Below are positions 10,037 through 42,843 of a DNA stretch of 64,000 nucleotides, in pieces; position 1 is the stretch's first letter, and the number at the start of each line of letters is the position of its first letter. Made by a program: the position numbers and the translations under genes. This DNA is from an uncultured Candidatus Saccharibacteria bacterium (GTDB lineage: Bacteria; Patescibacteriota; Minisyncoccia; Ryanbacterales; HO2-45-13). The stretch lies in the NCBI GenBank assembly GCA_964354975.1, contig CAYHBS010000002.1:16088-80087 (forward strand), given 5' to 3'. A model generated the notes under the pieces. It ran no database searches. It was given only the letters and a program-made list of their open reading frames with translations, and was not told where the DNA came from.

Positions 10037-10107
10037 CGGGCTGTCGTATACCGGTAGTACGCATGTTTTGGGAACATGTAGACTGGGTTCAATTCCCAGC
10101 AGCCCGA
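10037..10107 (+). tRNA. tRNA-Pro (anticodon TGG), CCA not encoded
   Basis: Manual fold: acceptor CGGGCTG/CAGCCCG, D-arm GTAT-ACCGGTA-GTAC, anticodon stem CATGT/ACATG with loop TTTGGGA (U33, anticodon UGG, G37), T-arm CTGGG-TTCAATT-CCCAG, discriminator A followed by CCG. Confidence 0.8.
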
Positions 10108-10109
10108 CC

Positions 10110-10234
10110 GGTTTTTGGAGGGAAGCAGGAGGCAAACTGCTTTGCCTCTGTTGGGAATTGAAGGGCGAGCGATGTGCGAAGCACCGCAAAGCCCCGGCCG
10201 AGCTGATGGAGCGAGGAAGACCAGCAGCCCGACC
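10110..10234 (+). ncRNA. tRNA-linked structured element copy 1 (hairpin GAGGCAAAG/CTTTGCCTC, hairpin GTGCgaaGCAC, then a duplicate of the tRNA-Pro 3' end CCAGCAGCCCGACC)
   Basis: About 75% identical to the element after the second tRNA-Pro. The first hairpin shows compensatory changes between copies (GAGGCAAA/TTTGCCTC versus CAGGTAAA/TTTACCTG). Confidence 0.4.
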
Positions 10235-10269
10235 AGTAATCGTGAAGAAAGAATGCCTATTTTAATGTG

Positions 10270-10340
10270 CGGGACGTCGTATACCGGTAGTACATACGAT
10301 TCGGGTTCGTATAGACTGGGTTCGATTCCCAGCGTCCCGA
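10270..10340 (+). tRNA. tRNA-Pro (anticodon CGG), CCA not encoded
   Basis: Acceptor CGGGACG/CGTCCCG, same D-arm as the first tRNA-Pro, anticodon stem TACGA/TCGTA with loop TTCGGGT (anticodon CGG), T-arm CTGGG-TTCGATT-CCCAG, discriminator A. Confidence 0.8.
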
Positions 10341-10342
10341 CT

Positions 10343-12826: not shown

Positions 12827-12905
12827 CGATCACATTATTGATTGGGAATTCATTGACCGTAAACCACGTTGGGTTCACGGCCATGAACTCCATGTAGTTC
12901 ATGGG

Positions 12906-12978
12906 TCCGCCCACTTGGATTCGAACCAAGGACCCACTGCTTAAGAGGCAGTTGCTCTACCAGCTGAGCTATAGGCGG
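12906..12978 (-). tRNA. tRNA-Lys (anticodon CTT), CCA not encoded
   Basis: Minus-strand fold: acceptor CCGCCTA/TGGGCGG, D-arm GCTC-AGCTGGTA-GAGC, anticodon stem ACTGC/GCAGT with loop CTCTTAA, T-arm CTTGG-TTCGAAT-CCAAG, discriminator A. Confidence 0.8.
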
Positions 12979-12984
12979 AAGATA

Positions 12985-13130
12985 TATGCACAAAAACATT
13001 AAATCATGAAAACACATGAACATTAAAGCACAAGAACACCAGAACATTAAAGCAAAAAAACATTAAATTATGAAAACACAAGAACATTAAATCACAAAAA
13101 CACGAAAACAAAAGAACACAAACAGTTTAT
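12985..13130. repeat. A-rich degenerate tandem repeat (aacattaaa[gt]ca... units, about 8 copies)
   Basis: Repeated acattaaa cores at irregular spacing of about 17-21 bp between tRNA-Lys and tRNA-Arg. Confidence 0.6.
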
Positions 13131-13234
13131 CGCGATCCCCCCGCCAGCTGGCGGATCCCACCCCGCTTTGCGGGGACGCTCCGACTTTCGAGTCCCTCCC
13201 GTCCCGCGCACCGGCGGGACTCTCGGACGCCTTG
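13131..13234 (-). other. GC-rich cluster of 3-4 hairpins immediately 3' of tRNA-Arg (CGCCAGCTGGCG palindrome, CCCCGCtttGCGGGG, GTCCCGCcggtgcGCGGGAC)
   Basis: Local GC is much higher than the flanking sequence. Contains a T-arm-like GGAGGGACTCGAAAGTC segment. Could be a terminator array, an att-site remnant or a small RNA. Confidence 0.35.
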
Positions 13235-13307
13235 CGTCCTCGGAGGGACTCGAACCCCCAACCTTTGGTTCCGAAGACCAACGCTCTAGCCATTGAGCTA
13301 CGAGGAC
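13235..13307 (-). tRNA. tRNA-Arg (anticodon TCG), CCA not encoded
   Basis: Minus-strand fold: acceptor GTCCTCG/CGAGGAC, D-arm GCTC-AATGGCTA-GAGC, anticodon stem TTGGT/ACCAA with loop CTTCGGA, T-arm GGGGG-TTCGAGT-CCCTC, discriminator G. Confidence 0.75.
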
Positions 13308-27832: not shown

Positions 27833-29232
27833 TGCGCATATTCACATCTCGCCTACTGATGGCACTGTTTCTCGGCATCATACTTGTTGCGGCTCCCATG
27901 CCGTCACGCGCACAATTTGTGCCGGTATGGGTTGTGGAAGACACGCCGTTTGATGTCAAAGAAAATCTTCTTGATACGATGATGAAACCACTTGCGCGCC
28001 GCATCGCGAGCATGTTCGTTAATGCAACGGTGGATTGGCTACGCGCAGGCGGGAAAGGCGGAGGACCACTTTTCATCACCGATTTCCAAAAATTTGCTGA
28101 AGATGCGCTGGTGAACGCGTCGGGAGAATTTATTAATCAACTTGGACTCTCGGATCTTCTCTGTGGGCCGTTCCCATTTGCATTTGATATTAGTTTCTTT
28201 GGAGGAGCGGGGCGCAATAAATACGAACAGTTTGATTGCACTATTGAAGATGTCGTTGCCAATGTGGAGGATTGGCAGAATGATTTCAATAGCGGTGGGT
28301 GGCAAGCGTGGCATGAATATATGAAACCCCAAAATCGTGCAAGTAGCGCATTTATGCTCGCACTCGATACCGCAATCGTGGCAGGAGAGCAGGAGCGGGA
28401 GGAAGCAACTTCCAAGGCGAGCGCGTCTGGCGGCATACTTCCCAGCCAGCTCTGCGCAGACGTAACATACCCCACTTCAGCGGGAACCGTGGTCACTGAA
28501 GAGCGCTGTATTGACACTACTCCGCAAGAAGCAGTCGTAACTGCAGTCCATGATACATTGGGTTCGAGTATGGATTGGCTCGTTGATGCGGATGAAATAT
28601 CAGAACTTATCACAGCAGTTACCGATTTTGCAATCTCACAACTTATGAACGATGCGTCCGGTCTGTTGGGATCCGATCCCGGGCCACGCAATCTTGAACG
28701 TGATTCTGGAACTGCAATAGGTGTGGAAACAGGGAAGCAGTCGCTCAGATCGCTTACATCCTCTGCCATCACTACGGTTGACCGCACAGCAAATATTCTT
28801 CAGGCATATATCACCGAGCAACTTAGTCTTCAGCAAGATCCTCCATACAGCCCGCTGCTGTGCTCTCCTAGCAATCCGAGTTGTCTTTATACCGTCGATA
28901 ATGGAGGCTGCGCGCTTAGCCCCCCCATTAAAGGATGTCCAGTGCTCGTTTTCTACGGCGGAAATACTTTTGATGCCCAAGACCTTTACACAAATCTTCG
29001 TTTGCAGTCCGTGGAATTGGGCTCTTTCCGAGACGTTGCGGTCTCTACTGCCACCTCTATCGGTGAACTCTCGGATCTTGGTAGAGATTTGCAGTCATTA
29101 TGGAATGCGTCAAAACAATGGATTCGCATCACGGAAACCATTATGAATGAAGCACAAATTTCGGACATAGAACGTCGAATTGCTTCTACAGATGATAGTC
29201 TATCGGAATTTATTCGCTACAGCGGACAATAG
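27829..29232 (+). CDS. Secreted hypothetical protein (signal peptide, Cys-containing)
   Basis: Signal peptide MMRIFTSRLLMALFLGIILVAAPMPSRA. 467 aa. Translationally coupled on both sides. Confidence 0.5.
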   Translation: MMRIFTSRLLMALFLGIILVAAPMPSRAQFVPVWVVEDTPFDVKENLLDTMMKPLARRIASMFVNATVDWLRAGGKGGGPLFITDFQKFAEDALVNASGEFINQLGLSDLLCGPFPFAFDISFFGGAGRNKYEQFDCTIEDVVANVEDWQNDFNSGGWQAWHEYMKPQNRASSAFMLALDTAIVAGEQEREEATSKASASGGILPSQLCADVTYPTSAGTVVTEERCIDTTPQEAVVTAVHDTLGSSMDWLVDADEISELITAVTDFAISQLMNDASGLLGSDPGPRNLERDSGTAIGVETGKQSLRSLTSSAITTVDRTANILQAYITEQLSLQQDPPYSPLLCSPSNPSCLYTVDNGGCALSPPIKGCPVLVFYGGNTFDAQDLYTNLRLQSVELGSFRDVAVSTATSIGELSDLGRDLQSLWNASKQWIRITETIMNEAQISDIERRIASTDDSLSEFIRYSGQ

Positions 29233-29235
29233 AAT

Positions 29236-31429
29236 GCGAAAGTTTACTACTATTATTACGTCTATTCTTCTCTCTGCGCTGTTGCTCGCGATATTTGTCC
29301 CATCGCTTGCGCTGGCACAAAGCGGTGACGCATATAACGCGAATTTAACGATTATAGGGGAGACAAATCCTTGCGGAATAACAGGCTTGAGCTTCTGGTT
29401 AAGTACATGTCTTGTATACTGGTTTGCCAACTTTTTAGGAATAATTCTGTGGATGCTCGGGTGGATTATAGGGATCATCGGGCAGATATTTACCATTTTT
29501 GCATCTTTTGCGCTCAGTGGCGCCATGTTCGATTCTGCCTCCATCGATGAGGGGTGGATGATAATGAGGGATATTGGCAACATCGCATTCATATTTATTT
29601 TGCTCTATATTGGGGTAACTACCATATTAGATATTGGTGGGGTTAACACGAATAAACTGCTCGCGCGCGTGGTGATTGCAGTGCTACTCATGAATTTTAG
29701 CCTCGCACTCACGAAAATACCGATTGACGCAAGTAATGTATTCGCTATTGCGTTTCATAATGCGATTGGAAATGGAAACGCAAGAACCGATGGCTTTGAT
29801 CTTGATATTGATTCCTCTTTACGAAATATCGATATTTCCGGTGAACTGATGACTGCGATGAGTCCGCAACGACTCTTCACCTCGGTACAGATCGGCGCAG
29901 ACACTGTAACCAGCGCTAATTTTATGGAGACAATCATGGCGGTGATCGTAAATAGTATTTTTGCCCTTGTTGCGCTCGGTCTCCTAATTTATGTATTTCT
30001 CACAGGTATTGTGATTTTTTTGGTGCGCATCGTTGCACTATCAATGGTGCTGATTTTTTCGCCCGCCGCAGTTATTGCCTACGCCGCTGGCATGGATGGT
30101 TTTTTCAAAAAATGGAAAACATATCTCGTGAACTATGCAGTCGTGGCTCCTATCTATATGTTCTTTATTTATCTCACGCTCCGATTTGCAAAGAGTCCAT
30201 TTCTGCAAAAAGCATTTCAAGATGGCTTTTCAGGATTAGGGCAAGGGTGGGGAGTGGCCTCGATTGCAGAGTGGGCGTCTGGAAACGCAGTTTTTTTAGT
30301 TGGTTATTTTATGATCATTGGATTCCTCCAAGCTGGGGTAAAGATTGCAAAGCAGCTGGGCATTGTAGGGGCAGACGCTATTGATAAGCTTGGTAAAAAA
30401 TTTGCGGTCGTAGGTAAGGTTGCCGCACTCGCAACACCGCTGGGTGCGGGTATGGCCGCGGTAAGTATTGCTCAAAAGACTCTGTTTAACCCAGCGGCAA
30501 ACATTGTTAAGGCCGGGAAGTTGCGCACCGTGGATAGGGGACTGAAGGGTGTATATAACAAACTCGAGGCATCGACAAAAGCGGATCAAGAGGCTGGTAC
30601 AAAACGAAATATTGGAACACGCTTGCTACGCAACTATGGCATGAGGGGCGCCAATGCGGCGCTTGGACAAACTGAGGATCGTATTAAAGAATCTGAGAAG
30701 GAATTTGCAAGTGTGCGTTCAGCAGATGAATTAAAACTCGCTATCTCGAGTCCATTTATTAGCGCGGAAAAAGCGATGGCGGGAATGCGAGTACTCGCAG
30801 AAAAATTCAAAGACTTTAAACCGTTCGGCACATTCGATCCAAAGAACTTTGAGGCACTTTATGGCAGATTTAAGAATATAGGCGTCAATACGAAAAGTAT
30901 CGAGGATGTTGATCCAAGGTTTGCTAAACTTGGCAAGTCTGCAGATAAAACTCCAATGGAGCAGGTGGCCGAATCTGCAAAAAAACGATCAAATCGCGAG
31001 CGCATTCAAGGATACGATCAGGGAATCTTTGGTGCGGCAGATAAGGATGGAGTGGGAGATAGAGCGGCAGATGCGGAAAAGGTTGGTCTCGCGATTGCAG
31101 AAGGTATTGTAAGTTCTGGAAAGATGGAAAATATTATCACTATGCAGCAACACTCTGCCGCTGGTGAAAAGCGTCTCGTAGAAGTCTTACAATCATACGT
31201 GAATGAATATCACACAAAGAAGGGAACCACGGGAGACATCATTAAAGACGTGAAAGAGGCTCTGGAAGAAAAGGGCCTCGGGCGCGTCGCAAGAGGACTA
31301 GAAAATTCAAACTCCATAGAGGTGCGCGCGCTAATTCAAGAAAAAGTGGAGATGAAAAAAGTGACTGGTAAAAATCCGGGTGGCGCTGAGCGAACGATTC
31401 TTGATTCAGTTGAAAACTCTGCATTATGA
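29236..31429 (+). CDS. VirB6/TrbL-like polytopic membrane protein with long hydrophilic C-terminal domain
   Basis: Signal peptide plus about 6-8 predicted TM helices in the N-terminal 400 aa, followed by a charged about 330-aa tail. The topology and operon context with VirB4 and PrgI-like genes match the VirB6/TrbL class. Confidence 0.5.
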
Positions 31430-32877
31430 AATACCCCCTTATTCAAGTGAGGGAAATAGTGCATACGCTTCCGCAGAGTATACTCATGGTATTTGAGTCT
31501 GACAAAACAGGGGAAATTATCCGAGAAATAGCGGAAAAATTTCAACTAGAAGATAAAACTACTTGGGCCCTCGCAGATCAAGTTACATATACGCTTGTTG
31601 GACTGCTGAATCCAGAACAATTTCATGATTCGGTCATGCGCGAGCTCAACCTTCGTCCATCAGAAACTGACGAGATAGTAAAAGAGGTTGATGAAAAAAT
31701 TTTTCAACACATTCGATCTGACCTTAATAATCTTGCGCGGGGTGGTGCGCCAAAATTTACTGACGCAGCGCAGACTCCACCAACTCCACATCCTCCAACG
31801 CCTGCGATTATCCCCAACGTGCCAGCGCATGCGCCTGACCAAATTGAACGCGCAGCCGCTTCTTCATTATGGAATATCCCATTAAACCCTGTGGTCACCG
31901 AGGCCACTCCCATGACGCCGCGCACACTATCAACTCCCTCCCCACAAAAAATCTCTCCGGAACCTGTGCCACAGCCGCTCCAACCAAAATCAGCAGCCCC
32001 ACTCCCTCCGCCACCAAAAGAGGAGCTGGTGGTGCCTCATAAAAGCGGATCTCAACACACGAGCAACATGCCAGGAATGCGTCATCCGTGGCTTTCAGAT
32101 CCGATCAAACTTCCCAGTACGGTCGCGCCCACTCCCGGCTCCGTAAAGGAAGTAGAGAAAAAGGGGCTGACCGAAAAGCCAAAGGTGCCCACCTTTGAAA
32201 AGGTAAGTGCAAGTACGAAGACAGAGATTATAACGGCGCCCTCCGTATCTGTCGCAACAAAACCTGAATCACCTAACATTTCTTCTATTCCGCAACCGAT
32301 ACAACAAAGAGCTCCGATGCCCGCGAGCACACCCTCCATCGTAAAGCCCCTTACTTCGACTACGCCCCTCCAAAAAACTTCAGCACCGGCACCTGCGAAC
32401 GTATCAGTTCCGCTCAAACCACACATCTCGGAACCTGTTTCAACCAAAGACATAACATCCACCGAAGTGATTATGCCCGGGAAGGGAGTGAACATCCCAA
32501 TACCTAAAATGGTAAGTCGTCTTCCTATAGAAGAGCGGGACGCGTCGCGCATTACCATTGTGCGTAAGCAAGTTACAGAAGCGCCAAAAACTATTACCAC
32601 AAAAGTGCCGTCCACTCCAGCGGACGCTCCAATTTCACCCGTTTCTTCAACAATATCACCTAGCGCTCATAAAACTTCAAACAATTCAATCACACGCACC
32701 ACACCAACTCCCGTAGCGTCTGCAACCGAAGCGGTGAAGTCGCCAATAAAAATACCCACCCCTGGAGCTCCGTCGCACGAGGTGGTGCGTCCAGAAAAAA
32801 CTCCTATCACGCCACCAACGCCGGACACACCAATATACCAAGGCGGAAAAGATCCTTATCGCGAGCCAGTATCCTAA
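31426..32877 (+). CDS. Hypothetical protein with structured N-domain and long Pro/Thr/Ser-rich low-complexity region
   Basis: The N-terminal 110 aa are globular, followed by PTPHPPTPAIIPNVPAH... and repeated P/S/T-rich segments. Confidence 0.45.
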   Translation: MKYPLIQVREIVHTLPQSILMVFESDKTGEIIREIAEKFQLEDKTTWALADQVTYTLVGLLNPEQFHDSVMRELNLRPSETDEIVKEVDEKIFQHIRSDLNNLARGGAPKFTDAAQTPPTPHPPTPAIIPNVPAHAPDQIERAAASSLWNIPLNPVVTEATPMTPRTLSTPSPQKISPEPVPQPLQPKSAAPLPPPPKEELVVPHKSGSQHTSNMPGMRHPWLSDPIKLPSTVAPTPGSVKEVEKKGLTEKPKVPTFEKVSASTKTEIITAPSVSVATKPESPNISSIPQPIQQRAPMPASTPSIVKPLTSTTPLQKTSAPAPANVSVPLKPHISEPVSTKDITSTEVIMPGKGVNIPIPKMVSRLPIEERDASRITIVRKQVTEAPKTITTKVPSTPADAPISPVSSTISPSAHKTSNNSITRTTPTPVASATEAVKSPIKIPTPGAPSHEVVRPEKTPITPPTPDTPIYQGGKDPYREPVS

Positions 32878-32878: not shown

Positions 32879-33304
32879 ATGTTGCAATTTCAAGTACCAC
32901 AATTCGTCGATGTTGAAGATAAGGTGATTTGGATTTTATCATTCCGGCAGTTTGGTATTTTTCTTGCCGCAGGTGGGCTCATCTTTCTCGTCCGACAATT
33001 TCGCTTTCCCACAGCCATTTTTGGCATCTTTGCACTTGCCATTGTGGGATTTGCGTACATGCTTGCGTTCCTTAAAGCAGAGGGGAGGCCATTTCATCAT
33101 CGCGTTCTTGGATTTATTCGCTACTATTTCAGCCCGCAACTCTATCTCTGGGCAACGCCGAAAGAATCTGCTCGTGAAGTGGAACAGCGTGACCAGAAAA
33201 AAGCACAGCGGATCGTAGCGGCGGCACCCGTTACCGAAAAGAAGCTTACTCCCAATAAACTAAAGGAGCTCGCCTGGAAGCTTAATATTCACGAACAGAA
33301 ATAA
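32879..33304 (+). CDS. PrgI-family small membrane protein (Gram-positive-type T4SS component)
   Basis: MLQFQVPQFVDVEDKVIWILSFRQFGIFLAAGGL matches the PrgI-family N-terminal signature (VPQ..D.EDK...G.L..RQ) followed by two TM helices. Confidence 0.6.
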   Translation: MLQFQVPQFVDVEDKVIWILSFRQFGIFLAAGGLIFLVRQFRFPTAIFGIFALAIVGFAYMLAFLKAEGRPFHHRVLGFIRYYFSPQLYLWATPKESAREVEQRDQKKAQRIVAAAPVTEKKLTPNKLKELAWKLNIHEQK

Positions 33305-33305: not shown

Positions 33306-33947
33306 ATGGCTAATTTACCAGCGTCACAAAAAATATTAGAGATCGAGGAAATACGAGACAATGTGCTCGTGATTAAAAATAAGGGGCTCCGCACCATACT
33401 TCTCTGTACCTCGATTAACTTCGACCTCAAATCCACTGATGAACAAGAGTCTATTATTCTTTCATATCAACGCTTTATCAATACACTCGATTTTCCGGTA
33501 CAATTTTTTGTCTCTTCGCGCAGATTAAACATCGATGGGTATTTGGACGATCTTCGAATACGCGCAAGTGAGGAAACAAATGAATTACTAAAAATACAGA
33601 CCAATGAGTATATTGCGTTCATGAAGTCCCTCGTGACCTCAAACAGTATCGTTACAAAAACGTTTTATACGGTCGTACCATATCAGCCTGCTGAAGCAAC
33701 GAAAGAAGCATCAATGATTTCTGGAGTATTTAGTATGATCACGGGAAAGCAAAAAACGGACGCGGATGTTGCAGAAAAATTTGATGAGTGGAAATCACAA
33801 CTCTTGCAACGCGTGGCGGTTGTTGAGCAGGGACTCTCGGGAATTGGCATTCGCTCGGTCGCGCTCGGTACGGAAGAACTCATTGAACTCTTCCGGCAAC
33901 TCTACAATCCGGATCTCGCAGGACCTATTGGAGTGACAATAAAATAA
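33306..33947 (+). CDS. VirB4/TraC-type ATPase N-terminal domain encoded as a separate ORF
   Basis: LVIKNKGLRTILLCTSINFDLKSTDEQESIILSYQRFINTLDFPVQFFVSSRRLNIDGYL is the conserved N-terminal region of Gram-positive VirB4 homologs. It is separated from the ATPase ORF by TAA plus 1 nt. Confidence 0.65.
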   Translation: MANLPASQKILEIEEIRDNVLVIKNKGLRTILLCTSINFDLKSTDEQESIILSYQRFINTLDFPVQFFVSSRRLNIDGYLDDLRIRASEETNELLKIQTNEYIAFMKSLVTSNSIVTKTFYTVVPYQPAEATKEASMISGVFSMITGKQKTDADVAEKFDEWKSQLLQRVAVVEQGLSGIGIRSVALGTEELIELFRQLYNPDLAGPIGVTIK

Positions 33948-33948
33948 T

Positions 33949-35757
33949 ATGGCGCTATTTAATAAACAACAAAAAAATCTTCCTGCCAATATCGCGCCCG
34001 TTCTTCCCGACGACGTGTATCGCGAGGGACTTGTCGAAATGCGGGATATTATTGCTCCAAGCGCATTTTCGATAGCGTCCGCACATGTACAACTTGGGAA
34101 TGTATTTACGCGCACCATGTTTGTACTCTCGTACCCGCGCACACTCGCTCCTAATTGGTTTGGCGACATCATCAGTCTTGATAAAGTATATGACGTTTCA
34201 ATATTTATCCATCCTGCAGACACCGCAAAGGTGCTGAAGGACTTACAAAAACAATCGGCACGCGTACTTTCGCAAATTCGCGAAAACGAAGAGAAGGGAA
34301 TGGTGCGCGACCCCATGCTCGATACCGCATATCGAGACATAGAGACACTGCGAGATCGCCTCCAGCAGGCAACGGAAAAATATTTTTCATTTGGACTGTA
34401 TATTACGGTGTATGCCGACTCTGCAGATGCACTAAACAAAGCGGAGCATGAAGTAAGATCAATTCTAAGCTCTAAGCTCATTGAGACTCGCCCCGCGATG
34501 TTCCGACAAAAAGAGGGGCTTCACTCCACGTTTCCAATGGGCACTGATCTGTTGGGGGTAAATTATAATATGAACACCGCTCCGATATCTAGCGTCTTCC
34601 CATTTTCTTCACTCGAACTTACGTCGGATAGGGGAATTCTCTACGGTATGAATCGAAGTAATGCCTCGCTTGTTATTTTTGATCGCTACAGCTTGGAGAA
34701 TTACAACTCCGTTATTCTTGCCACTTCAGGAGCCGGAAAATCATACACCGCAAAGTTAGAAATTATCCGCTCCCTGATGTTGGGTACGGAAGTGATTATT
34801 ATCGACCCCGAGCGCGAGTATGAGTTTCTTGCGGAATCCATCGGCGGGCGCGCATTCAATATTTCTCTCACGTCAAAGCATCATATCAATCCATTCGACC
34901 TTCCAACACCCAGAGAAGACGAATCATTGTCTGATGTGCTCCGCTCGCACATCATCGGACTGGTGGGGCTCTTTCGTATTATGCTCGGTGGACTCACCCC
35001 CGAGGAAGATGCGGTGCTCGACCGCGCAATCACCGAAACGTACGCAACGAAGGACATCACCGCAGAAAGCGACTTTACCGGGCGCACGCCTCCGCTACTC
35101 ACTGACCTGGAGCTTGTACTATCTAATATGGAGGGTGGGGAGGCACTCGCAATGCGACTGCGAAAATATACTACTGGTACGTGGGCGGGGTTTCTTAATC
35201 AACACACCAACGTCGATATCACAAAAAAATTAACAGTATTTTCGGTGCGCGACATGCAAGACGATCTCCGCCCCATTGCGATGTATCTCATTGTCCAGCA
35301 CATTTGGAATGCTATTCGACAAGAACTAAAGAAGCGTATACTACTCGTCGATGAGGCGTGGTGGATGATGAAAAGTGAGGACGGCGCATCATTCCTCTTT
35401 GGTATCGCGAAGCGCGCGCGTAAATATTATCTAGGTCTCATGACCATCACGCAGGACGTTGCGGACTTTATGGGCTCGCAGTATGGACGCGCCATTATCA
35501 CGAACTCATCCGTACAGCTACTGCTCAAACAATCTCCGAGCACGATTGATATTGTAAAAGAAACATTTCACCTCACCGATGAAGAACGATATTTACTGCT
35601 TGGCGCAGAGGTGGGAACGGGAATATTCTTTGCGGGAATGAAGCATGTCGCAATTCGCGTAATTTCCTCTTATACTGAACATCAGATTATCACTTCTGAT
35701 CCATCGGAAATCCTGGCAGTCAAACAAGCAAAAGAAGAATATGCGAGTAATCAATAA
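33949..35757 (+). CDS. VirB4/TrbE/CagE-family T4SS ATPase (central and C-terminal domains)
   Basis: Walker A ATSGAGKSYTAKLEI, IIIDPEREY, Walker B LLVDEAWWMM and the ITQDVADF motif. Extensive collinearity with the VirB4 family. Confidence 0.85.
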   Translation: MALFNKQQKNLPANIAPVLPDDVYREGLVEMRDIIAPSAFSIASAHVQLGNVFTRTMFVLSYPRTLAPNWFGDIISLDKVYDVSIFIHPADTAKVLKDLQKQSARVLSQIRENEEKGMVRDPMLDTAYRDIETLRDRLQQATEKYFSFGLYITVYADSADALNKAEHEVRSILSSKLIETRPAMFRQKEGLHSTFPMGTDLLGVNYNMNTAPISSVFPFSSLELTSDRGILYGMNRSNASLVIFDRYSLENYNSVILATSGAGKSYTAKLEIIRSLMLGTEVIIIDPEREYEFLAESIGGRAFNISLTSKHHINPFDLPTPREDESLSDVLRSHIIGLVGLFRIMLGGLTPEEDAVLDRAITETYATKDITAESDFTGRTPPLLTDLELVLSNMEGGEALAMRLRKYTTGTWAGFLNQHTNVDITKKLTVFSVRDMQDDLRPIAMYLIVQHIWNAIRQELKKRILLVDEAWWMMKSEDGASFLFGIAKRARKYYLGLMTITQDVADFMGSQYGRAIITNSSVQLLLKQSPSTIDIVKETFHLTDEERYLLLGAEVGTGIFFAGMKHVAIRVISSYTEHQIITSDPSEILAVKQAKEEYASNQ

Positions 35758-36742
35758 ATTTGTTACAATTATCGCTACCGCCGTCCTCTGTACACCCTGG
35801 TTTCTCAACTTCACGTTCGTGAATGCACAATTTGGTGCGCCAACTGTTTCACCTGGACAAATCCAAATTATTGCGACACCAACTCAATCAAACGCGAATG
35901 AAGCAGTAACGCTCGAAGCAAGGTCGTACGCCGTTAATCTGAATGCAATGGATATTATTTGGTATGCCGATGATAAAATTGTTACTTCAGGTTACGGCCT
36001 TTATTCCACTACGGTCACCCTTGGTGCCATTGGATCAGAAACACGCTTACGCGTCGTGGGAAGAATGTCTGGGGCGTTAGTTGCTGAGGGATTTATTACG
36101 CTTCGCCCCGCTAATCTTGTTCTTGTTATGGAGGCAAACTCCACTGCTCCATTTTGGTATCAAGGAAGAAAACTCCCGTCTCCTCGGGGGTCAGTGAGCA
36201 TTACCGCATTTCCCACGCTTGCGGGAATATACGCATCGTTAAGTCCAAATAGATTGCAGTATACTTGGCATGTAAATAACTCGGGTGCAATTGCGCTCGC
36301 TGGGGTAGGGAAGCAAACATTGCGCCTTCCCCTTCCAAAAGCCCCCACAGCGGTTACGCGAGTACAAGTAACCGTTACCGACCCCAGAGGCACATATTCT
36401 GCAACCGGATTTGTGCATGTGATACCTGAAAAACCACACGTTACACTATTCAGTGATCAATCACACTCGCGTACACGAAACGCGGTTTCCGGAACAATAC
36501 AACTCCGTCCTGATGAAAAAATTGGTCTTTACGCGGAACCTTTTTATATAGGAAATTCTGGAGATCATACGTTTGAATGGAAAAGTAACGGACAAAAAAT
36601 TCCCATCACTGGAGAGCGTGGCAACACCGCAGTCCTCACTATGCCAAGCGTCCCCGCTGCATACACAATCACCGCTAGCGTCTTAAATATCCAAAATGCC
36701 TTTGAGCGTGCGATGGCTACATTAATCTTACGAGTCGAATAA
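35741..36742 (+). CDS. Secreted beta-rich hypothetical protein
   Basis: Signal peptide (VTIIATAVLCTPWFLNFTFVNA). Overlaps the VirB4 ORF end. Confidence 0.5.
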   Translation: MRVINKFVTIIATAVLCTPWFLNFTFVNAQFGAPTVSPGQIQIIATPTQSNANEAVTLEARSYAVNLNAMDIIWYADDKIVTSGYGLYSTTVTLGAIGSETRLRVVGRMSGALVAEGFITLRPANLVLVMEANSTAPFWYQGRKLPSPRGSVSITAFPTLAGIYASLSPNRLQYTWHVNNSGAIALAGVGKQTLRLPLPKAPTAVTRVQVTVTDPRGTYSATGFVHVIPEKPHVTLFSDQSHSRTRNAVSGTIQLRPDEKIGLYAEPFYIGNSGDHTFEWKSNGQKIPITGERGNTAVLTMPSVPAAYTITASVLNIQNAFERAMATLILRVE

Positions 36743-36743
36743 C

Positions 36744-37190
36744 ATGAGCACGTTGTTTAAAACTTTTTGGACCTCACTCGTTATGTTTGTCTTTACAACC
36801 GGAGTGGTATTCGCACAAACGTTCCCTGCGCCGTACCAATTATCAGAACCGCTACCTGGGTCTCCCAATAGGGCGGTGGGTAGCCTCGCGGAGTATTTGA
36901 GTCTTGCATATATATCGCTCCTTTCTGCTTCGATTGCCTTTGGATTAGTCATGTTGGTTTATAGTGGGGTGGAATATATCACTGCGGGTGGAAATCAAAA
37001 TGCAATAAAAAGCGCAAAGGACCGAATGTTTAGAATCGCAAAGGGTTTCATTATTATCGTTGGAGCCGTGTTGCTTCTCACTACATTAGGAGGAGACTCG
37101 CTTTTGGAGATGAATTTCGATATACGTCCAACTGGCACGCCATTTCCTACAGGAAACAATGCTCCGTCGGCTCCTACTGGTAATGAATAG
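36744..37190 (+). CDS. Small secreted protein with two hydrophobic helices, a candidate VirB2/TrbC-like pilin
   Basis: Signal peptide, then two TM segments separated by a short loop (LSLAYISLLSASIAFGLVMLVY...GFIIIVGAVLLLTTLGG), about 120 mature residues. This is pilin-like architecture in the T4SS-like operon. Confidence 0.4.
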   Translation: MSTLFKTFWTSLVMFVFTTGVVFAQTFPAPYQLSEPLPGSPNRAVGSLAEYLSLAYISLLSASIAFGLVMLVYSGVEYITAGGNQNAIKSAKDRMFRIAKGFIIIVGAVLLLTTLGGDSLLEMNFDIRPTGTPFPTGNNAPSAPTGNE

Positions 37191-38370: not shown

Positions 38371-38838
38371 CTACGGATATGGACGGATCACGACGCACCG
38401 CGCATGACCCTCCCCTGTTGATTCAGTAGTGATGTCTGGATATTCTTGGAGCGTCACGTGCACAATGCGTCGCTCAAACGCTGACATCGGCGCGAGTACG
38501 ACCTCCTTTTTGAAATACCGCACTCGCTGAGCGCCCATGCGGGCCTGGTCGCGTAATTCCTCATATTGCTTCCTTCGATAATCATTTACATCCACCAATA
38601 TTTGGGCGCTATCATGACCAAGCTCGTGCTCCATAATGCGTCGGATCATATGATTGAGTGCTTGGAGTCGTGCGCCATCTTCACCAATGAGCACTCCGGC
38701 TTCGGGAGTGCGAATCGTGAGCGTGAGTGTATCTCCAAGGGCACCTTCTTCAAGGGTGCCGGAAACGCCCATGAGTTTAAGCAGCGTCTCGAGGTGTTGC
38801 GCCGCTCGTTGTGATATGTTGTGTTCCTGTGGATTCAT
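38371..38838 (-). CDS. jag: Jag/KhpB-like RNA-binding protein (KH plus R3H domains)
   Basis: VLIGEDGARLQALNHMIRRI (KH-like) and ERRIVHVTLQEY (R3H). The true start may be the internal Met at about 38772, which would avoid the 62-nt overlap with yidC. Confidence 0.7.
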   Translation of the reverse strand: MNPQEHNISQRAAQHLETLLKLMGVSGTLEEGALGDTLTLTIRTPEAGVLIGEDGARLQALNHMIRRIMEHELGHDSAQILVDVNDYRRKQYEELRDQARMGAQRVRYFKKEVVLAPMSAFERRIVHVTLQEYPDITTESTGEGHARCVVIRPYP

Positions 38839-39556
38839 ATCTCATAGTTGCTGCGCGTTTACGCACAATTCCTTCGTGCACTATAGCAAGCACATTCATC
38901 ACTGTCCAATACAGCGGCAGGGCTGCGGCAAACTTCATACCAAAGAGCCCCACCATCAGTGGAATGATGTATGGCATTTGTGTCTGCATCGCTCGTTGAA
39001 ATTCTGGACCAAATCCCTCGCCACGTTGTGGTTGCGCTTTTTGTTTCGTCATCATCAACTTCACTTGGACGAATTGTGTGATGGCCGCAAGAATAGCAAG
39101 CGGAATAAATGGTTGCGAGAGATTAATTCCTAAAAACATCATATTAATATAATCAGGATGTGGTACAAAACTGTATAGCTGCGCAGAAATATCTCCGGTC
39201 AGTCCGTGTTGAAATATTTTAAAGAGCGCAATCAGGATAGGGAGTTGTATGAGTAGCAAAAAAAATGAGGTAAATGGATTGATGCCATGTTTTTTGTACA
39301 GCTCAAGGGTGCGGCGAGCGAGCTCCTCTCGATTGTCTTTATGTTCCTCTTTCAGGGCGGTGAGGTGGGGCTCCAAATGTTTCATTGCTTCCTGCACTTT
39401 TGTTGCGCGGTGTTGAAGAGGGAAGAGAATGGTGCGCACACATATGGTAATAATGATGACCGCGTATCCTACGCTTTGATCGGGCATTATGGCGGTCAGC
39501 GCAATAATGGCATTGAGCAGTGGCTGGTAGATAATTGTGGTATAGAGAAATTTCAT
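38777..39556 (-). CDS. yidC: Membrane protein insertase YidC (short Gram-positive/Oxa1 type)
   Basis: GYAVIIITICVRTILFPLQHRATKVQ...ELYKKHGINPFTSFFLLLIQLPILIALF are conserved YidC/Oxa1 core helices. Confidence 0.85.
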   Translation of the reverse strand: MKFLYTTIIYQPLLNAIIALTAIMPDQSVGYAVIIITICVRTILFPLQHRATKVQEAMKHLEPHLTALKEEHKDNREELARRTLELYKKHGINPFTSFFLLLIQLPILIALFKIFQHGLTGDISAQLYSFVPHPDYINMMFLGINLSQPFIPLAILAAITQFVQVKLMMTKQKAQPQRGEGFGPEFQRAMQTQMPYIIPLMVGLFGMKFAAALPLYWTVMNVLAIVHEGIVRKRAATMRYESTGTQHITTSGATPRDAA

Positions 39557-39891
39557 ATGAGTATACGTGCGAGTGTTTGTGTCACATCTTTTAACAAATC
39601 CTCTGGCGATACTTCGCTCGCATCTGTTTTGAGTCGAATAACGACATCATACCCTTTTTGCACCCTGGGAACAATTTTTGTACGTATACATTCAGTCACT
39701 TTTCGCTTATTCCGGTTTCTCACCACCGCAAACTTTGAGACACTTTTTGGAACTACCACACAAAAGCGTGTGAATTCGCTATCGCTGCGTAAGATGTGAC
39801 ACAAAACAAAATGGCCATGAAGACGAATTCCCGTCGACATGGCACGCCGAATGTCTGTATCGCTTTTCAGCCGCGAGTGTGGCGGCAACAT
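39553..39891 (-). CDS. rnpA: Ribonuclease P protein component
   Basis: RNR motif region (FAVVRNRNKRKVTE). 112 aa. Located between rpmH and yidC. Confidence 0.85.
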   Translation of the reverse strand: MLPPHSRLKSDTDIRRAMSTGIRLHGHFVLCHILRSDSEFTRFCVVVPKSVSKFAVVRNRNKRKVTECIRTKIVPRVQKGYDVVIRLKTDASEVSPEDLLKDVTQTLARILI

Positions 39892-39901
39892 ACGAATATG
39901 A

Positions 39902-40036
39902 TTATACCGTAAGACGCTTACGTCCTTTTGCTCGGCGCCGTTTCACAACCTTCACGCCTCCAGCACTGCGCCGTCGCTTTAAAAAGCCATGGGAACGGCT
40001 CCGTTTTCTCTTTTTTGGTTGATAGGTAACTGACAT
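39902..40036 (-). CDS. rpmH: 50S ribosomal protein L34 (not in the supplied ORF track; below the length cutoff)
   Basis: Minus-strand translation [44 protein letters not shown] (44 aa), a canonical L34, directly upstream of rnpA. Confidence 0.85.
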
Positions 40037-40170
40037 ATCTTGTGAAAATCATTATACACATGTCATACACACCTTGTAAACACTTAGGGCGTAAAACCAT
40101 TTTTTGCGTAGTTGGCTCACTTGTTGCACACTAGAGGGTAAACAGAGTAAAACATAACTACACCCACCAT
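40037..40170. promoter_or_regulatory. rpmH-dnaA intergenic region with tandem DnaA boxes (TTATACACA at 40052-40060 and adjacent TCATACACA); a candidate part of oriC
   Basis: The consensus TTATNCACA is matched exactly once and once with one mismatch. Divergent rpmH and dnaA promoters are expected here. Confidence 0.55.
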
Positions 40171-41550
40171 ATGCAACAACCCATCAATCACCAAGAACTG
40201 TGGCAAAAGGTTCTGAGTCAGATGGAACTAGAGACATCAAAGGCAAATTTCGCAACATGGTTTCAAAATACGACGCTCCAGGGCATCCAAGACGGCACTG
40301 CGCTCATTACCGTTCCGAATGCATTTGCTAAAGAGTGGTTAGAAAGAAAATATCATCGCTCCATTGTCAAGGCCCTACGGGACCAGACTGATGCGGTGCG
40401 TTCGGTAAATTACGCGATTAGTTCGCTCATTCAAAATCAGCGTCTCCAGAAAAAGATTGACCAACCACTCGAGGAACGGCATGAGCAGCTGGAATTTAAG
40501 GAGTTTTCGGTCGATCGTGAGACAAATCTTAACCCCAGATATACATTCGATAGCTTTATTGTTGGGTCGTTTAATGAACTAGCACATGCGGCCGCGCTAT
40601 CAATTACAAAGAGTATGGGATCACTCTATAATCCTTTTTTCGTCTATGGGGGGGTTGGGCTTGGGAAAACACATCTCCTTCAGGCAATCGGGAATGAGGT
40701 AAAAAAAATACACCCCAATTACCGTATTTTATACCTCACATCTGAAAGGTTTATGAATGAGCTCATCACACTCATTCAAAACCGAGAGCCCCTTGGGGCG
40801 TTTAAAGAAAAATATCGTGCGGTTGATCTTTTAATTATTGATGATATTCAGTTTATTGCGGGAAAGAATAAGACAGAGGAGGAGTTTTTCCACACATTTA
40901 ATGTGCTCTACGAGTTAGGTAAGCAGATTGTGTTTTCATCCGACAAACCCCCACAGATCATTCCAAATTTAGAAGCACGGCTGCGCTCACGTTTTGAGGC
41001 GGGGCTTATTGTTGATATTGGTCAACCTGAATATGAGTCACGCCTTGCAATACTCAAAGCAAAAGCGCTTGAAAAGCACTATATTCCCCCGGAAGAGGTG
41101 TTGGAATATATTGCGTCTCTCATTCAACAAAATATTCGTGAATTAGAAGGAGCGTTGAATATTTTAATTGCAAAAACCCGTCTCCGTACCCAACCACTAT
41201 CTATTGATGAGGCAAAACAGACACTGGAGCAGTTAAATCTCCAAGCACAACGTGTGGTCACTACGTCGCAGATTTTAAAGACGGTGGCTGAATTTTTTGG
41301 GATTGAAGAAAAAGATTTGTTCGCGAGAAGTCGTAAGAGGGAGGTGGTAAAACCCAGACAAATTGCGATGTACTTGCTTCGTGAAGATTTTCATGGATCA
41401 TATCCGTATATCGGACAAAAATTAGGTGGGAGAGACCACACCACCGCATTACATGCGCACGATAAGATCACAACGGATTTGAAAAAGAATGGAAAACTTG
41501 TGGAAGAAATTAGACTCATCAGGGAAAAGTTGTACAAAACTTCTCCGTAG
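40171..41550 (+). CDS. dnaA: Chromosomal replication initiator protein DnaA
   Basis: AAA+ Walker A GGVGLGKTHLLQAIGN, Walker B LLIIDDIQF, and C-terminal DNA-binding helix region (IAMYLLRE...IGQKLGGRDHTT). Confidence 0.92.
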   Translation: MQQPINHQELWQKVLSQMELETSKANFATWFQNTTLQGIQDGTALITVPNAFAKEWLERKYHRSIVKALRDQTDAVRSVNYAISSLIQNQRLQKKIDQPLEERHEQLEFKEFSVDRETNLNPRYTFDSFIVGSFNELAHAAALSITKSMGSLYNPFFVYGGVGLGKTHLLQAIGNEVKKIHPNYRILYLTSERFMNELITLIQNREPLGAFKEKYRAVDLLIIDDIQFIAGKNKTEEEFFHTFNVLYELGKQIVFSSDKPPQIIPNLEARLRSRFEAGLIVDIGQPEYESRLAILKAKALEKHYIPPEEVLEYIASLIQQNIRELEGALNILIAKTRLRTQPLSIDEAKQTLEQLNLQAQRVVTTSQILKTVAEFFGIEEKDLFARSRKREVVKPRQIAMYLLREDFHGSYPYIGQKLGGRDHTTALHAHDKITTDLKKNGKLVEEIRLIREKLYKTSP

Positions 41551-41730
41551 TAATGAGAAAAAATCGTATGGGGAATTTTCTTCCAGTCTTCATCCACATC
41601 TTATCAGTGGTGTACAAATAAAAAAGAATTGAAATACCCTTGTAGTAACATAATATTTATCCTTCCACACATATGCACGTAGGTAATAATAGTAATAAGT
41701 ATTTAATAAAGAAATAATTATATTATTACT
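41551..41730. promoter_or_regulatory. dnaA-dnaN intergenic AT-rich region with DnaA-box-like sites (TCATCCACA at 41590-41598) and an AT-rich DNA-unwinding-element-like stretch; a candidate oriC
   Basis: 180 bp at over 75% AT with box-like 9-mers. This is the classical position of oriC between dnaA and dnaN. Confidence 0.5.
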
Positions 41731-42843
41731 ATGCAGTTTGAATGTGTTGCTGAATATTTAAAGAAATCTGTAAGTATTGTTGAGCGTGTTGTTGGAAAAA
41801 ATCCAGCCGTTCCAATTCTTAGTACCATTCTTTTTACATACGAGCAGGGTAGAGTAATTATTGCAGCAACAAATCTCGAAATTGGGGTTGAAACATCCTT
41901 TCCTTGTTCCGGGGGGAAATACGGAGCGATAGCAATCCCTGCGCGTGTATTTTCGTCATTTCTCCTTGGTGTTGAAAATACCGCAAACCTTATTATTGGT
42001 CTTCATAATCACCAACTCACTATTGACGTTCATAATCAGCAAACAAAATTTCAAACACTTCCCACAAATGAGTTTCCTCCATTTCCCACACAACACGATA
42101 GTGCGGTCATTACCGTGCACCGATCATTATTCATTGATGCAGTAGGAAGGGTTGTTGTTGCCGCGTCCCCATTTAATATTCGTCAAGAGCTTGGATCGGT
42201 ACTCTTTCGTGTGAGGCAAGATCTCGTGTGTGTTGCCACAGATAGTTTTCGATTAGTAGAGGTACGTATTGCTCCTGGAGAATTTACCACGACCGAGCGG
42301 ACGCAACAATTTATGATTCCCGTACATGTTGTTGATGAGTGTGTACGTATTTTTAAAGAAAGCGCAGATGAAACGATCGCGCTCCACTTTTCACCACAAA
42401 GCGTCACTATTCGCTCTAAAGAAACCACCGTCTATTCACGACTCATTGATGGGGTATTTCCCGCGTATGAAGAAATTATTCCAAAACAATTTATCACGGA
42501 GTGTGTGGTGGATCGCCAAGAACTCTTACAGCACCTCAAGCAGGCGAAATTATTTTCTGGGAAACTCCACGATGTATATCTCTCATTCACATCAGATGGA
42601 GGTGTGTCCATCACCTCCGAAAGTCCTGATGTGGGTCAATACCACGCCGCGCTCCCAGCGCACATTACAGGGGAGGGGGTGAATATTACACTGAATTGGA
42701 AGTATATGATTGATGCGCTTCAAACATTTACGGAGCGAGAGGTATTTATTGGGGCGAACAAGGGAAAGGATGCGGTATTATTTAAAAACACCTCAAGTAC
42801 TCACAAACACATTATTATGCCGATGCGTGGTTTGAGAGAATAA
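41731..42843 (+). CDS. dnaN: DNA polymerase III beta subunit (sliding clamp)
   Basis: 370 aa with three beta-clamp domain repeats. N-terminal MQFECVAEYLKKSVSIVERVVGKNPAVPILSTILF is typical. Confidence 0.88.
   Translation: MQFECVAEYLKKSVSIVERVVGKNPAVPILSTILFTYEQGRVIIAATNLEIGVETSFPCSGGKYGAIAIPARVFSSFLLGVENTANLIIGLHNHQLTIDVHNQQTKFQTLPTNEFPPFPTQHDSAVITVHRSLFIDAVGRVVVAASPFNIRQELGSVLFRVRQDLVCVATDSFRLVEVRIAPGEFTTTERTQQFMIPVHVVDECVRIFKESADETIALHFSPQSVTIRSKETTVYSRLIDGVFPAYEEIIPKQFITECVVDRQELLQHLKQAKLFSGKLHDVYLSFTSDGGVSITSESPDVGQYHAALPAHITGEGVNITLNWKYMIDALQTFTEREVFIGANKGKDAVLFKNTSSTHKHIIMPMRGLRE

What the first reader, a model, noticed from the sequence alone, without database searches (positions are those of the whole stretch)
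33306..35757. The VirB4 ATPase is split into two ORFs at the N-domain / ATPase boundary
ORF 33306-33947 is the conserved VirB4 N-terminal domain. ORF 33949-35757 is the rest of VirB4 (Walker A, Walker B and C-terminal motifs). They are separated by TAA plus 1 nt and are in different frames. This could be a natural split into two polypeptides, a programmed +1 frameshift around ATAAAATAATATG, or a sequencing error.
Basis: seen in the sequence. Interest (0 to 1): 0.5.

Follow-up and report, generated by a model that had tools for sequence, protein, structure and literature searches.

The report
Natural two-gene VirB4: TrsD-like plus ATPase
The secretion-system motor VirB4 really is encoded here as two adjacent genes, but this is the normal, conserved and already published arrangement in this group of ultra-small bacteria (Patescibacteria), not a frameshift or a sequencing error.

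Summary
ORF1 (33306-33947, 213 aa) ends in TAA, one T follows, and ORF2 (33949-35757, 602 aa) starts in the +1 frame.

It is a natural split:
- The exact ORF1 protein is on 13 independently assembled contigs. All six junctions I inspected are identical.
- Relatives 84% identical keep the same arrangement.
- In 79 of 79 species-level Patescibacteria genomes where both halves are visible, the genes are separate. Junctions range from a 17-nt overlap to a 496-nt spacer, in all three frame relations (17 / 41 / 21).

This excludes a sequencing error and a conserved programmed frameshift.

ORF2 keeps about 250 residues, including PF03135, ahead of Walker A.

Quiñonero-Coronel et al. 2025 already report 2,272 TrsD homologues in Patescibacteria, 1,664 of them near virB4. 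The finding is ordinary and already known, so interest is low.

The parts
32879..33304 (+). PrgI family (VirB3-like) small membrane protein, 141 aa. It ends TAA, then T, then the ATG of ORF1.
   Evidence: Pfam PF12666 PrgI, E 8.6e-6, 26.6 bits, just under the 27-bit cutoff. The same gene is called with PrgI (weak) in independent contigs. Junction sequence.
33306..33947 (+). ORF1: TrsD-like protein (Pfam PF26593 'TraC-like'), 213 aa. It corresponds to roughly the first 190 residues of a canonical VirB4 N-terminal domain.
33945..33951 (+). Gene junction TAA-T-ATG (TAATATG): stop of ORF1, one spacer base, start of ORF2. It is a likely termination-reinitiation (translational coupling) site.
   Evidence: The same heptamer forms the two preceding gene junctions, at 32875 and 33302. 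It is identical in 6 independent contigs and in 84%-identical relatives.
33949..35757 (+). ORF2: short VirB4-family ATPase, 602 aa. It holds the second half of the N-terminal domain plus the ATPase domain.
   Evidence: NF045971 VirB4-like CD1110 family, 363.6 bits (cutoff 325), model positions 180-732 of 752. Pfam P-loop_TraG, AAA_10, DUF87 and CagE_TrbE_VirB. Homologue lengths have a median of 605 aa in 74 complete loci.
34087..34536 (+). CagE_TrbE_VirB (PF03135) segment of ORF2, aa 47-196. It shows that part of the VirB4 N-terminal domain stays on the ATPase polypeptide.
   Evidence: E 5.2e-6, 27 bits, cutoff 21.
34729..34743 (+). Walker A (G-A-G-K-S, ORF2 aa 261-265)
   Evidence: Motif search.
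35338..35355 (+). Walker B (I-L-L-V-D-E, ORF2 aa 464-469)
   Evidence: Motif search.
29180..32877 (+). Two co-operonic ORFs upstream: a 749-aa protein with hydrophobic stretches and a 483-aa proline-rich protein. Neither has an identified family. They are tightly packed with the T4SS genes.
   Evidence: no Pfam hit. The same genes are present in independent contigs.
35741..37190 (+). Two co-operonic ORFs downstream: a 333-aa protein of unknown family that overlaps ORF2 by 17 nt, and a 148-aa protein with a weak T4SS pilin match.
   Evidence: PF18895 T4SS_pilin, E 7.5e-4, 20 bits, below the 26.6-bit cutoff.

Best explanation
This is the normal gene organisation of the Patescibacteria type IV secretion system. 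The function carried out by one roughly 800-aa VirB4 polypeptide in most systems is encoded here by two separately translated genes.

The first is a roughly 215-aa TrsD-like protein (ORF1), corresponding to the first half of the VirB4 N-terminal domain. The second is a roughly 600-aa short VirB4 (ORF2), holding the second half of the N-terminal domain plus the Walker A/B ATPase domain.

The genes lie in the order PrgI(VirB3)-TrsD-VirB4. They are joined by stop-1 nt-start junctions, so translation is probably coupled and the products are made in similar amounts.

Inferred, not shown: the TrsD-like protein docks on the N-terminal part of ORF2 and rebuilds a complete VirB4 N-terminal domain. This domain is the part that VirB3 wraps around in the R388 structure, so the TrsD-like protein would link the ATPase hexamer to the PrgI/VirB3 membrane platform.

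Shown here: the homology, the fold resemblance, the complementary coverage of full-length VirB4 models, the synteny and the conservation of the split.
For: (1) Not an error. The exact 213-aa ORF1 is on 13 contigs from different samples and assemblers. The 6 loci fetched have a junction identical to the window's.

(2) Conserved in close relatives. The 84%-identical relative (4 contigs) keeps TAA-T-ATG although the flanking codons differ. ORF1 differs from it by 99 synonymous and 35 non-synonymous codons.

(3) Conserved in distant relatives. At least 597 species-representative genomes encode a relative. Among the best 80 loci, 79 of the 79 that extend far enough have ORF1 ending in a stop followed by a separate ORF2 homologue. 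Gaps run from -17 to +496 nt. Frame relations are 0, +1 and +2 in 17, 41 and 21 loci. The stop codons are TAA 59, TGA 10 and TAG 10.

(4) The ORF2 start is conserved. An M-[AGSPC]-[LIVFM]-[LIVFM] N-terminus occurs in 51 of 79 loci.

(5) Database searches. All of the top 120 homologues are 209-248 aa. Of the top 150 representatives of 50%-identity clusters, 149 lack any ORF2-like part. One is a colinear 797-aa fusion, P0197.

(6) Complementary coverage. ORF1 covers CD1110 model positions 13-119 and ORF2 covers positions 180-732 of 752.

(8) Known precedent. S. aureus plasmid SAP082A has TrsC-like (weak PrgI hit) - trsD (227 aa) - 14 nt - DUF87 ATPase (672 aa). hhalign of the ORF1 profile against TrsD is colinear over the whole length, with E 8.9e-4.

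(9) Literature. TrsD homologues are the most abundant T4SS component in Patescibacteria: 2,272 in total, 1,664 associated with virB4. The one in S. epibionticum ML1 is listed as essential (PMC12102498).

(10) Support for the VirB3-linking role. A Streptomyces locus fuses PrgI to the TrsD-like domain in one 319-aa ORF, ahead of a short VirB4. In R388, VirB3 wraps around the VirB4 N-terminal domain (PMC9259494).
Against: - No direct evidence here that ORF1 and ORF2 bind each other. No multimer model or co-purification was available.
- Sequence similarity of ORF1 to named TrsD is weak. NF041427 gives 19.9 bits against a cutoff of 200. hhalign probability is only 23% against a single TrsD sequence.
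- The local Pfam copy gave no hit for ORF1 at E <= 0.01. The PF26593 assignment comes from precomputed annotation.
- The +1 frame relation is over-represented (41 of 79). I attribute this to the many 1-nt and 4-nt spacers and to shared ancestry, but did not test it.
- A trace level of frameshifted fusion product cannot be excluded from sequence alone.
Confidence: 0.9

Rival explanations
1. Sequencing or assembly error: a one-base indel in the A-rich run (AAAA at 33941-33944) artificially breaks one 815-aa VirB4 gene.
For: Deleting one A would give ACA ATA AAT AAT ATG GCG and a continuous ORF (read). Homopolymer runs are common indel sites.
Against: The junction is identical in 6 independent contigs from different samples and assemblers, out of 13 contigs that carry the exact protein. 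The same split is in 84%-identical relatives and in 79 of 79 distant genomes, with quite different junction sequences. The ORF2 N-terminus is conserved.
Confidence: 0.01
2. Programmed +1 ribosomal frameshift at AAA-TAA-T yields a full-length, 815-aa VirB4, in the manner of prfB.
For: ORF2 is in the +1 frame. A stop codon in the A site next to an A-rich codon is the general layout of +1 shift sites. +1 is the commonest frame relation among orthologues, at 41 of 79.
Against: 38 of 79 orthologous junctions are in frame 0 or +2. Many have overlaps of 4-17 nt or spacers of 20-496 nt. No slippery motif is conserved. tRNA-Lys re-pairing from AAA to AAU is poor (inference from codon pairing). GGAG lies 8 nt before the AAA codon, not about 3 nt as in prfB (the prfB spacing is from established knowledge). 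The same TAATATG joins the unrelated pairs 483-aa ORF/PrgI and PrgI/ORF1 in this operon. Stand-alone ORF1 homologues are the rule.
Confidence: 0.02
3. Recent pseudogenisation: a broken VirB4 gene on its way to loss.
For: Patescibacteria genomes are reduced, and split genes can mark decay.
Against: Both halves are intact and conserved across the phylum. Synonymous changes outnumber non-synonymous changes by about 3:1 in ORF1 against the 84% relative. The Walker motifs are intact. The TrsD homologue and virB4 are reported essential in S. epibionticum ML1 (PMC12102498).
Confidence: 0.01
4. ORF1 is an independent T4SS accessory protein that only resembles the VirB4 N-terminus, for example an old duplicate. 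It would act on its own, perhaps as a chaperone-like or adaptor factor, rather than complete the VirB4 protomer.
Against: ORF2 lacks the model positions that ORF1 covers, so the coverage is complementary and not duplicated. A colinear natural fusion exists (P0197). ORF1 and ORF2 are strictly adjacent in 79 of 79 loci.
Confidence: 0.08

Closest known systems
TrsD homologue plus VirB4 of the Patescibacteria T4SS (Quiñonero-Coronel et al. 2025, PMC12102498; essentiality from Wang et al. 2023 as cited there)
   Same: Same phylum. Same stand-alone protein of about 215 aa with remote homology to the VirB4 N-terminus, next to virB4 and close to PrgI/VirB3 and a T4SS pilin-like gene. The locus is chromosomal, with no relaxase found among the neighbours I scanned.
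   Different: Nothing substantive. This window is one more instance. The paper does not spell out where in the N-terminal domain the cut lies, or how variable the junction is. Both are shown here.
TrsD/TrsE of staphylococcal pGO1/pSK41-type plasmids (MPF_FATA, pGO1 subclass), seen here on SAP082A
   Same: Same gene order: VirB3-like, then TrsD (227 aa), then a VirB4-type ATPase lacking the extreme N-terminus (672 aa), with a short spacer of 14 nt. Full-length colinear profile match.
   Different: Similarity is very low (about 20% identity, E about 1e-3). The plasmid system is conjugative, with a MOBQ relaxase in the typing shown. The window locus is chromosomal, lies near dnaA, and no relaxase was found among the neighbours I scanned.
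Canonical single-chain VirB4 (R388 TrwK, PDB 7O42/8RTB; CD1110-family VirB4 of Firmicutes ICEs)
   Same: ORF1 and ORF2 together cover the full-length models colinearly. The ORF1 model has TrwK as its best structural match. ORF2 has the Walker A/B ATPase domain.
   Different: Two polypeptides instead of one. The break lies inside the roughly 400-residue N-terminal domain.
VirB3-VirB4 fusions, and the Streptomyces sp. BHT-5-2 PrgI-TrsD fusion
   Same: They show that VirB3, the VirB4 N-terminal module and the ATPase are shuffled as modules. In Streptomyces the TrsD-like module is fused to PrgI, and the short VirB4 (38% identical to ORF2) follows with a 4-nt overlap.
   Different: In the window all three modules are separate genes. 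The 2025 paper found no VirB3-VirB4 fusion in Patescibacteria.
prfB-type programmed +1 frameshift
   Same: A +1 frame relation, with a stop codon at the candidate shift site.
   Different: No conserved shift site, frame or stimulator across orthologues. Rejected.

Membership tests
TrsD-like / Pfam PF26593 'TraC-like' stand-alone VirB4 N-terminal module (ORF1) | Match to the family profile | tested here: inconclusive
   The precomputed annotation assigns PF26593 to ORF1's exact sequence and to all 120 top homologues. The local Pfam copy returned no hit at E <= 0.01 and only PF11130 TraC_F_IV at E 0.049. NCBIfam NF041427 TrsD/TraD gives 19.9 bits, far below its cutoff of 200. ORF1 is therefore a remote relative of staphylococcal TrsD, not a member of that NCBIfam subfamily.
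TrsD-like / Pfam PF26593 'TraC-like' stand-alone VirB4 N-terminal module (ORF1) | Stand-alone protein of about 200-230 aa without an ATPase domain | tested here: met
   ORF1 is 213 aa. Homologues are 209-248 aa. 149 of the 150 top cluster representatives have no ORF2-like region.
TrsD-like / Pfam PF26593 'TraC-like' stand-alone VirB4 N-terminal module (ORF1) | Encoded directly upstream of a virB4 gene and downstream of a VirB3/PrgI/TrsC-like gene | tested here: met
   Window gene order. 79 of 79 related loci have the ORF2 homologue directly downstream. SAP082A has the same order.
TrsD-like / Pfam PF26593 'TraC-like' stand-alone VirB4 N-terminal module (ORF1) | Fold of the VirB4 N-terminal region | tested here: met
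   [not shown]
VirB4 family T4SS ATPase (ORF2) | Profile match above the curated cutoff | tested here: met
   NF045971 conju_CD1110, 363.6 bits against a cutoff of 325. Pfam PF19044, PF12846, PF01935 and PF03135 are all above their cutoffs.
VirB4 family T4SS ATPase (ORF2) | Walker A and Walker B motifs | tested here: met
   SGAGKS at aa 261 and ILLVDE at aa 464.
VirB4 family T4SS ATPase (ORF2) | Complete N-terminal domain on the same polypeptide | tested here: not met
   The ORF2 alignment starts at position 180 of 752 (CD1110 model) and at position 236 of 792 (TIGR00929). The missing part is supplied by ORF1.
Programmed +1 frameshift gene (prfB-like) | Shift site, frame relation and stimulatory element conserved among orthologues | tested here: not met
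   Frame relations are 17 / 41 / 21. Gaps run from -17 to +496 nt, with diverse junction sequences.
Programmed +1 frameshift gene (prfB-like) | A fused full-length product is the functional protein | not testable with these tools
   This needs proteomics or ribosome profiling. Indirectly it is unlikely, because stand-alone gene products are the rule.
Patescibacteria MPF_FATA-like T4SS locus | VirB4 with VirB3/PrgI, TrsD and pilin-like genes nearby, in a chromosomal position | tested here: met
   PrgI and a weak T4SS_pilin hit. Housekeeping flanks: PNPase, UvrD, KsgA, dnaA and dnaN. VirB6 and VirB1 homologues were not identified: the neighbouring ORFs gave no Pfam hit.

The most novel reading that the evidence does not exclude
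Keeping the VirB3-binding N-terminal module (TrsD-like) as a separate polypeptide might be functional rather than neutral. It could stay bound to PrgI/VirB3 as a fixed membrane dock while the short VirB4 hexamer attaches and detaches. It could also be present in a different stoichiometry, for example only on 'central' protomers. Either would give the Patescibacteria T4SS, which is essential for epibiotic growth, a way to regulate motor engagement that single-chain VirB4 systems lack. The frequent disordered C-terminal tails on TrsD-like proteins could be part of such regulation.
Probability: 0.12. Interest if true: 0.5.

Novelty: already known. Interest (0 to 1): 0.12.

Why it matters
For annotation, it matters mainly as a caution. 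These two ORFs should not be merged, flagged as a pseudogene or annotated as a frameshift. ORF1 should be named a TrsD-like VirB4 N-terminal module, not a hypothetical protein.

Biologically, it adds only detail to a published picture. The cut lies inside the VirB4 N-terminal domain. The junction is evolutionarily fluid: overlaps, spacers, one natural re-fusion, and one PrgI-TrsD fusion in Streptomyces. This fits a model in which VirB3, the N-terminal module and the motor are separable parts of one assembly. The Patescibacteria T4SS is of real interest because it is essential for the epibiotic lifestyle, but the split itself is not new.

Tried and rejected
- **Profile search of PDB sequences with the ORF1 alignment:** no hit even at E <= 10. 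Sequence alone does not link ORF1 to solved VirB4 structures, so fold comparison was needed.
- **Local Pfam scan of ORF1:** nothing at E <= 0.01. PF26593 seems to be absent from the local copy.
- **BLASTP of the window PrgI against the N-terminus of the Streptomyces 319-aa ORF:** not significant. Pfam then showed the PrgI domain directly.
- **Guglielmini 2014 (PMC4027160):** cited by the 2025 paper for the TrsD/VirB4 N-terminus homology, but its held main text does not contain the word TrsD. I cite the 2025 paper for that statement.
- **The pELF paper (PMC13492992):** its TraD is a VirD4 homologue, so it is irrelevant.
- **The antisense 228-aa ORF 33795-34481 spanning the junction:** considered and rejected as a gene. 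It is not open in the 84% relative (95 codons) or in most loci (median 64).
- **Searches and predictions not run:** I did not run a second large protein search with ORF2. I did not predict the structure of ORF2 or of the fused relative. The verdict did not depend on either, and the structure tool returns no coordinates from which an interface could be measured.
Full report
**1. The observation**

The ORF table and the raw sequence confirm the coordinates exactly.
- ORF1 is 33306-33947 (213 aa, stop TAA at 33945-33947).
- One T follows at 33948.
- ORF2 is 33949-35757 (602 aa), in the +1 frame relative to ORF1.

The ORF2 frame carries its own TAA at 33940-33942. A fusion could therefore arise only within AAAA/T at 33941-33945. 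Loss of one A would give a continuous 815-codon frame.

**2. What the two ORFs are**

ORF2 is a VirB4-family ATPase.
- It scores 363.6 bits on NCBIfam NF045971 (VirB4-like, CD1110 family; cutoff 325), over model positions 180-732 of 752.
- It aligns to TIGR00929 VirB4_CagE from position 236 of 792.
- Pfam finds P-loop_TraG, AAA_10, DUF87 and, at aa 47-196, CagE_TrbE_VirB (PF03135).
- Walker A (SGAGKS) is at aa 261 and Walker B (ILLVDE) at aa 464.

ORF1 gives only weak sequence matches, but they are colinear with what ORF2 lacks:
- NF045975, positions 106-233 of 894 (E 1.9e-5).
- NF045971, positions 13-119 of 752 (E 3.9e-4).
- The stand-alone TrsD/TraD family NF041427, positions 21-144 of 201 (E 5.3e-4, well below its cutoff).

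The two ORFs therefore cover a full-length VirB4 model in a complementary way, not a duplicated one.

ORF2 still has about 250 residues before Walker A, including PF03135. The N-terminal domain of R388 TrwK is residues 15-400 (PMC9259494).

**3. Fold of ORF1**

I predicted the ORF1 structure with AlphaFold2 from a 23-sequence alignment. The model has mean pLDDT 78.4 and pTM 0.65.
- Foldseek against the PDB: the 14 best hits are all TrwK/VirB4 chains of the R388 T4SS (probability 0.96-1.00, E about 2e-3 to 6e-2, query TM 0.40-0.50).
- A profile search of PDB sequences found nothing, so this link rests on fold.

**4. Is the split real? Close range**

The exact ORF1 protein occurs on 13 contigs from different samples and assemblers (ENA, NCBI and Logan; record names Hain_H51 and Hain_H52). 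In the six loci fetched, the 70 bases around the junction are identical to the window, and the called genes are 141, 213 and 602 aa.

A relative with 84% identical ORF1 (four contigs from other runs) has different codons on both sides of the junction. It keeps AAA-TAA-T-ATG and the 213 + 601 aa pair. ORF1 differs from this relative by 99 synonymous and 35 non-synonymous codons. That is the pattern of a gene under purifying selection.

**5. Is the split real? Long range**

A word-indexed search found 1254 homologues of ORF1. The best 120 are all 209-248 aa.

An exhaustive profile search of 1.84 billion cluster representatives found 3819 families with E <= 1e-3. Among the top 150:
- 107 are shorter than 270 aa.
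- 42 are 270-443 aa. Two of the longest (P0173, P0187), read in full, carry low-complexity C-terminal tails. None of the 42 has similarity to ORF2.
- One (P0197, 797 aa) is a colinear fusion.

A scan of one genome per species found at least 597 genomes encoding a relative. In the best 80 loci, 79 extend far enough to show what follows. All 79 have ORF1 ending in a stop codon, followed by a separate ORF2 homologue.
- The junctions range from a 17-nt overlap to a 496-nt spacer.
- The frame of ORF2 relative to ORF1 is 0, +1 or +2 in 17, 41 and 21 loci.
- The stop codons are TAA 59, TGA 10 and TAG 10.
- The ORF2 N-terminus M-[AGSPC]-[LIVFM]-[LIVFM], as in MALF here, is found in 51 of 79 loci. This argues for a conserved independent start.

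A sequencing error or a recent pseudogene cannot produce this pattern. A programmed frameshift would require a conserved frame relation and shift site, and neither exists.

**6. The junction is an ordinary operon junction**

The heptamer TAATATG also joins the two preceding gene pairs: the 483-aa ORF with PrgI at 32875, and PrgI with ORF1 at 33302. The window has 11 copies against 5.9 expected, and three of them are these consecutive junctions. All seven junctions in the operon are between -17 and +6 nt.

This is the layout expected for termination-reinitiation coupling. It would deliver PrgI, the TrsD-like protein and VirB4 in similar amounts. That last point is inference.

**7. Comparison with what is known**

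S. aureus plasmid SAP082A (pGO1/pSK41 type) has the same order: a TrsC-like protein with a weak PrgI match, trsD (227 aa), a 14-nt spacer, then a 672-aa DUF87 ATPase. The ORF1 profile aligns to that TrsD over its whole length (E 8.9e-4, low probability against a single sequence).

Quiñonero-Coronel et al. 2025 (PMC12102498) already describe TrsD in Patescibacteria:
- It is the most abundant T4SS component in Patescibacteria.
- There are 2,272 homologues in 2,221 assemblies, 1,664 of them associated with virB4.
- The one in Ca. S. epibionticum ML1 is listed as essential.

The collection's own annotation calls ORF1 and its relatives PF26593 "TraC-like". The finding is therefore a further instance of a published arrangement.

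**8. Mechanism**

Shown:
- The homology and the fold resemblance.
- The complementary model coverage.
- The strict adjacency of the two genes.
- The conservation of the split.

Inferred: the TrsD-like protein binds the N-terminal roughly 230 residues of ORF2. Together they rebuild the VirB4 N-terminal domain, the part that VirB3 wraps around in R388 (PMC9259494).

Two natural variants fit this modular picture:
- The single fused relative P0197. Its junction ...CGC CAA GGG ATG GGC... looks like an in-frame junction whose stop codon became a sense codon. It is known from one contig only.
- A Streptomyces locus in which a PrgI domain (aa 18-106, E 1e-17) and a TrsD-like domain (aa 136-309, hhalign E 1.8e-10) are one 319-aa ORF. 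A 621-aa short VirB4, 38% identical to ORF2, follows.

I put about 0.9 on "natural, separately translated two-gene VirB4". Within that, I put about 0.7 on the specific complementation and VirB3-linking model. The main alternative is that TrsD acts as an independent accessory factor.

**9. Context**

The locus is chromosomal. It is flanked by PNPase, a ComM-like ATPase, UvrD/PcrA and KsgA upstream, and by dnaA and dnaN downstream. No relaxase or VirD4 was found among the neighbours I scanned. This matches the published view that the Patescibacteria T4SS is a chromosomal MPF_FATA-like system.

**10. Verdict**

The "natural split" reading is right. The frameshift and error readings are rejected. 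The stated domain boundary is corrected. The arrangement is already known, so interest is low.

Noticed in passing
L092:1928-4749 (Streptomyces sp. BHT-5-2 plasmid p1, NZ_CP081497.1 near 2.185 Mb): An unannotated Streptomyces locus encodes a 319-aa ORF that fuses a PrgI (VirB3-like) domain to a TrsD-like domain. A 621-aa short VirB4, 38% identical to the window's ORF2, follows with a 4-nt overlap. This is the closest plasmid-collection relative of a Patescibacteria VirB4, and a VirB3-TrsD fusion.
   Followed up: partly
L093:544-2937 (GCA_964615945.1, CAZTUR010000004.1): This is the only fused TrsD-VirB4 (797 aa) among the top 150 cluster representatives. The junction reads ...CGC CAA GGG ATG GGC..., as if an in-frame stop became CAA. 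It is seen on a single contig, so a real fusion cannot be told from an assembly error.
   Followed up: partly
window 38400-42843 and L093:3400-5437: The T4SS operon lies about 2 kb upstream of dnaA-dnaN in the window. The fused relative's locus also lies about 2.4 kb from dnaA (with rnpA and yidC). This may be conserved placement of the T4SS locus next to the replication origin region.
   Followed up: no
window 32875, 33302, 33945: Three consecutive gene junctions in the operon use the identical heptamer TAATATG (stop, one base, start). The two junctions flanking ORF1 share the 12-mer AAATAATATGGC.
   Followed up: yes
proteins P0173, P0187 and 40 others: About a quarter of the TrsD-like cluster representatives are 270-443 aa, longer than the usual ~215 aa, and none has similarity to VirB4. 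The two I read in full (P0173, P0187) carry long C-terminal tails rich in P, A, Q and T that look disordered.
   Followed up: partly
[not shown]
   Followed up: no
window 33795-34481 (- strand): A 228-aa antisense ORF spans the ORF1/ORF2 junction. It is not kept open in the 84%-identical relative (95 codons) or in most related loci (median 64 codons), so it is a chance ORF.
   Followed up: yes
window 33306-35757 against NCBIfam NF042935 (SCO6880 family): The actinobacterial SCO6880 family model (477 positions) matches ORF1 aa 130-206 at positions 215-292 and ORF2 aa 83-198 at positions 363-476. It appears to hold a whole VirB4 N-terminal domain without the ATPase, which would be a second, different natural cut point in VirB4.
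   Followed up: no
window 31426-32877: A 483-aa ORF between the large membrane protein and PrgI is very proline-, serine- and threonine-rich, and has no family match. Its length varies among close relatives (463 and 434 aa as called).
   Followed up: no
window 10037-10341: Two tRNA-Pro genes (anticodons TGG and CGG) lie 160 nt apart. tRNA-Lys(CTT) and tRNA-Arg(TCG) are nearby on the minus strand at 12902-13307.
   Followed up: no
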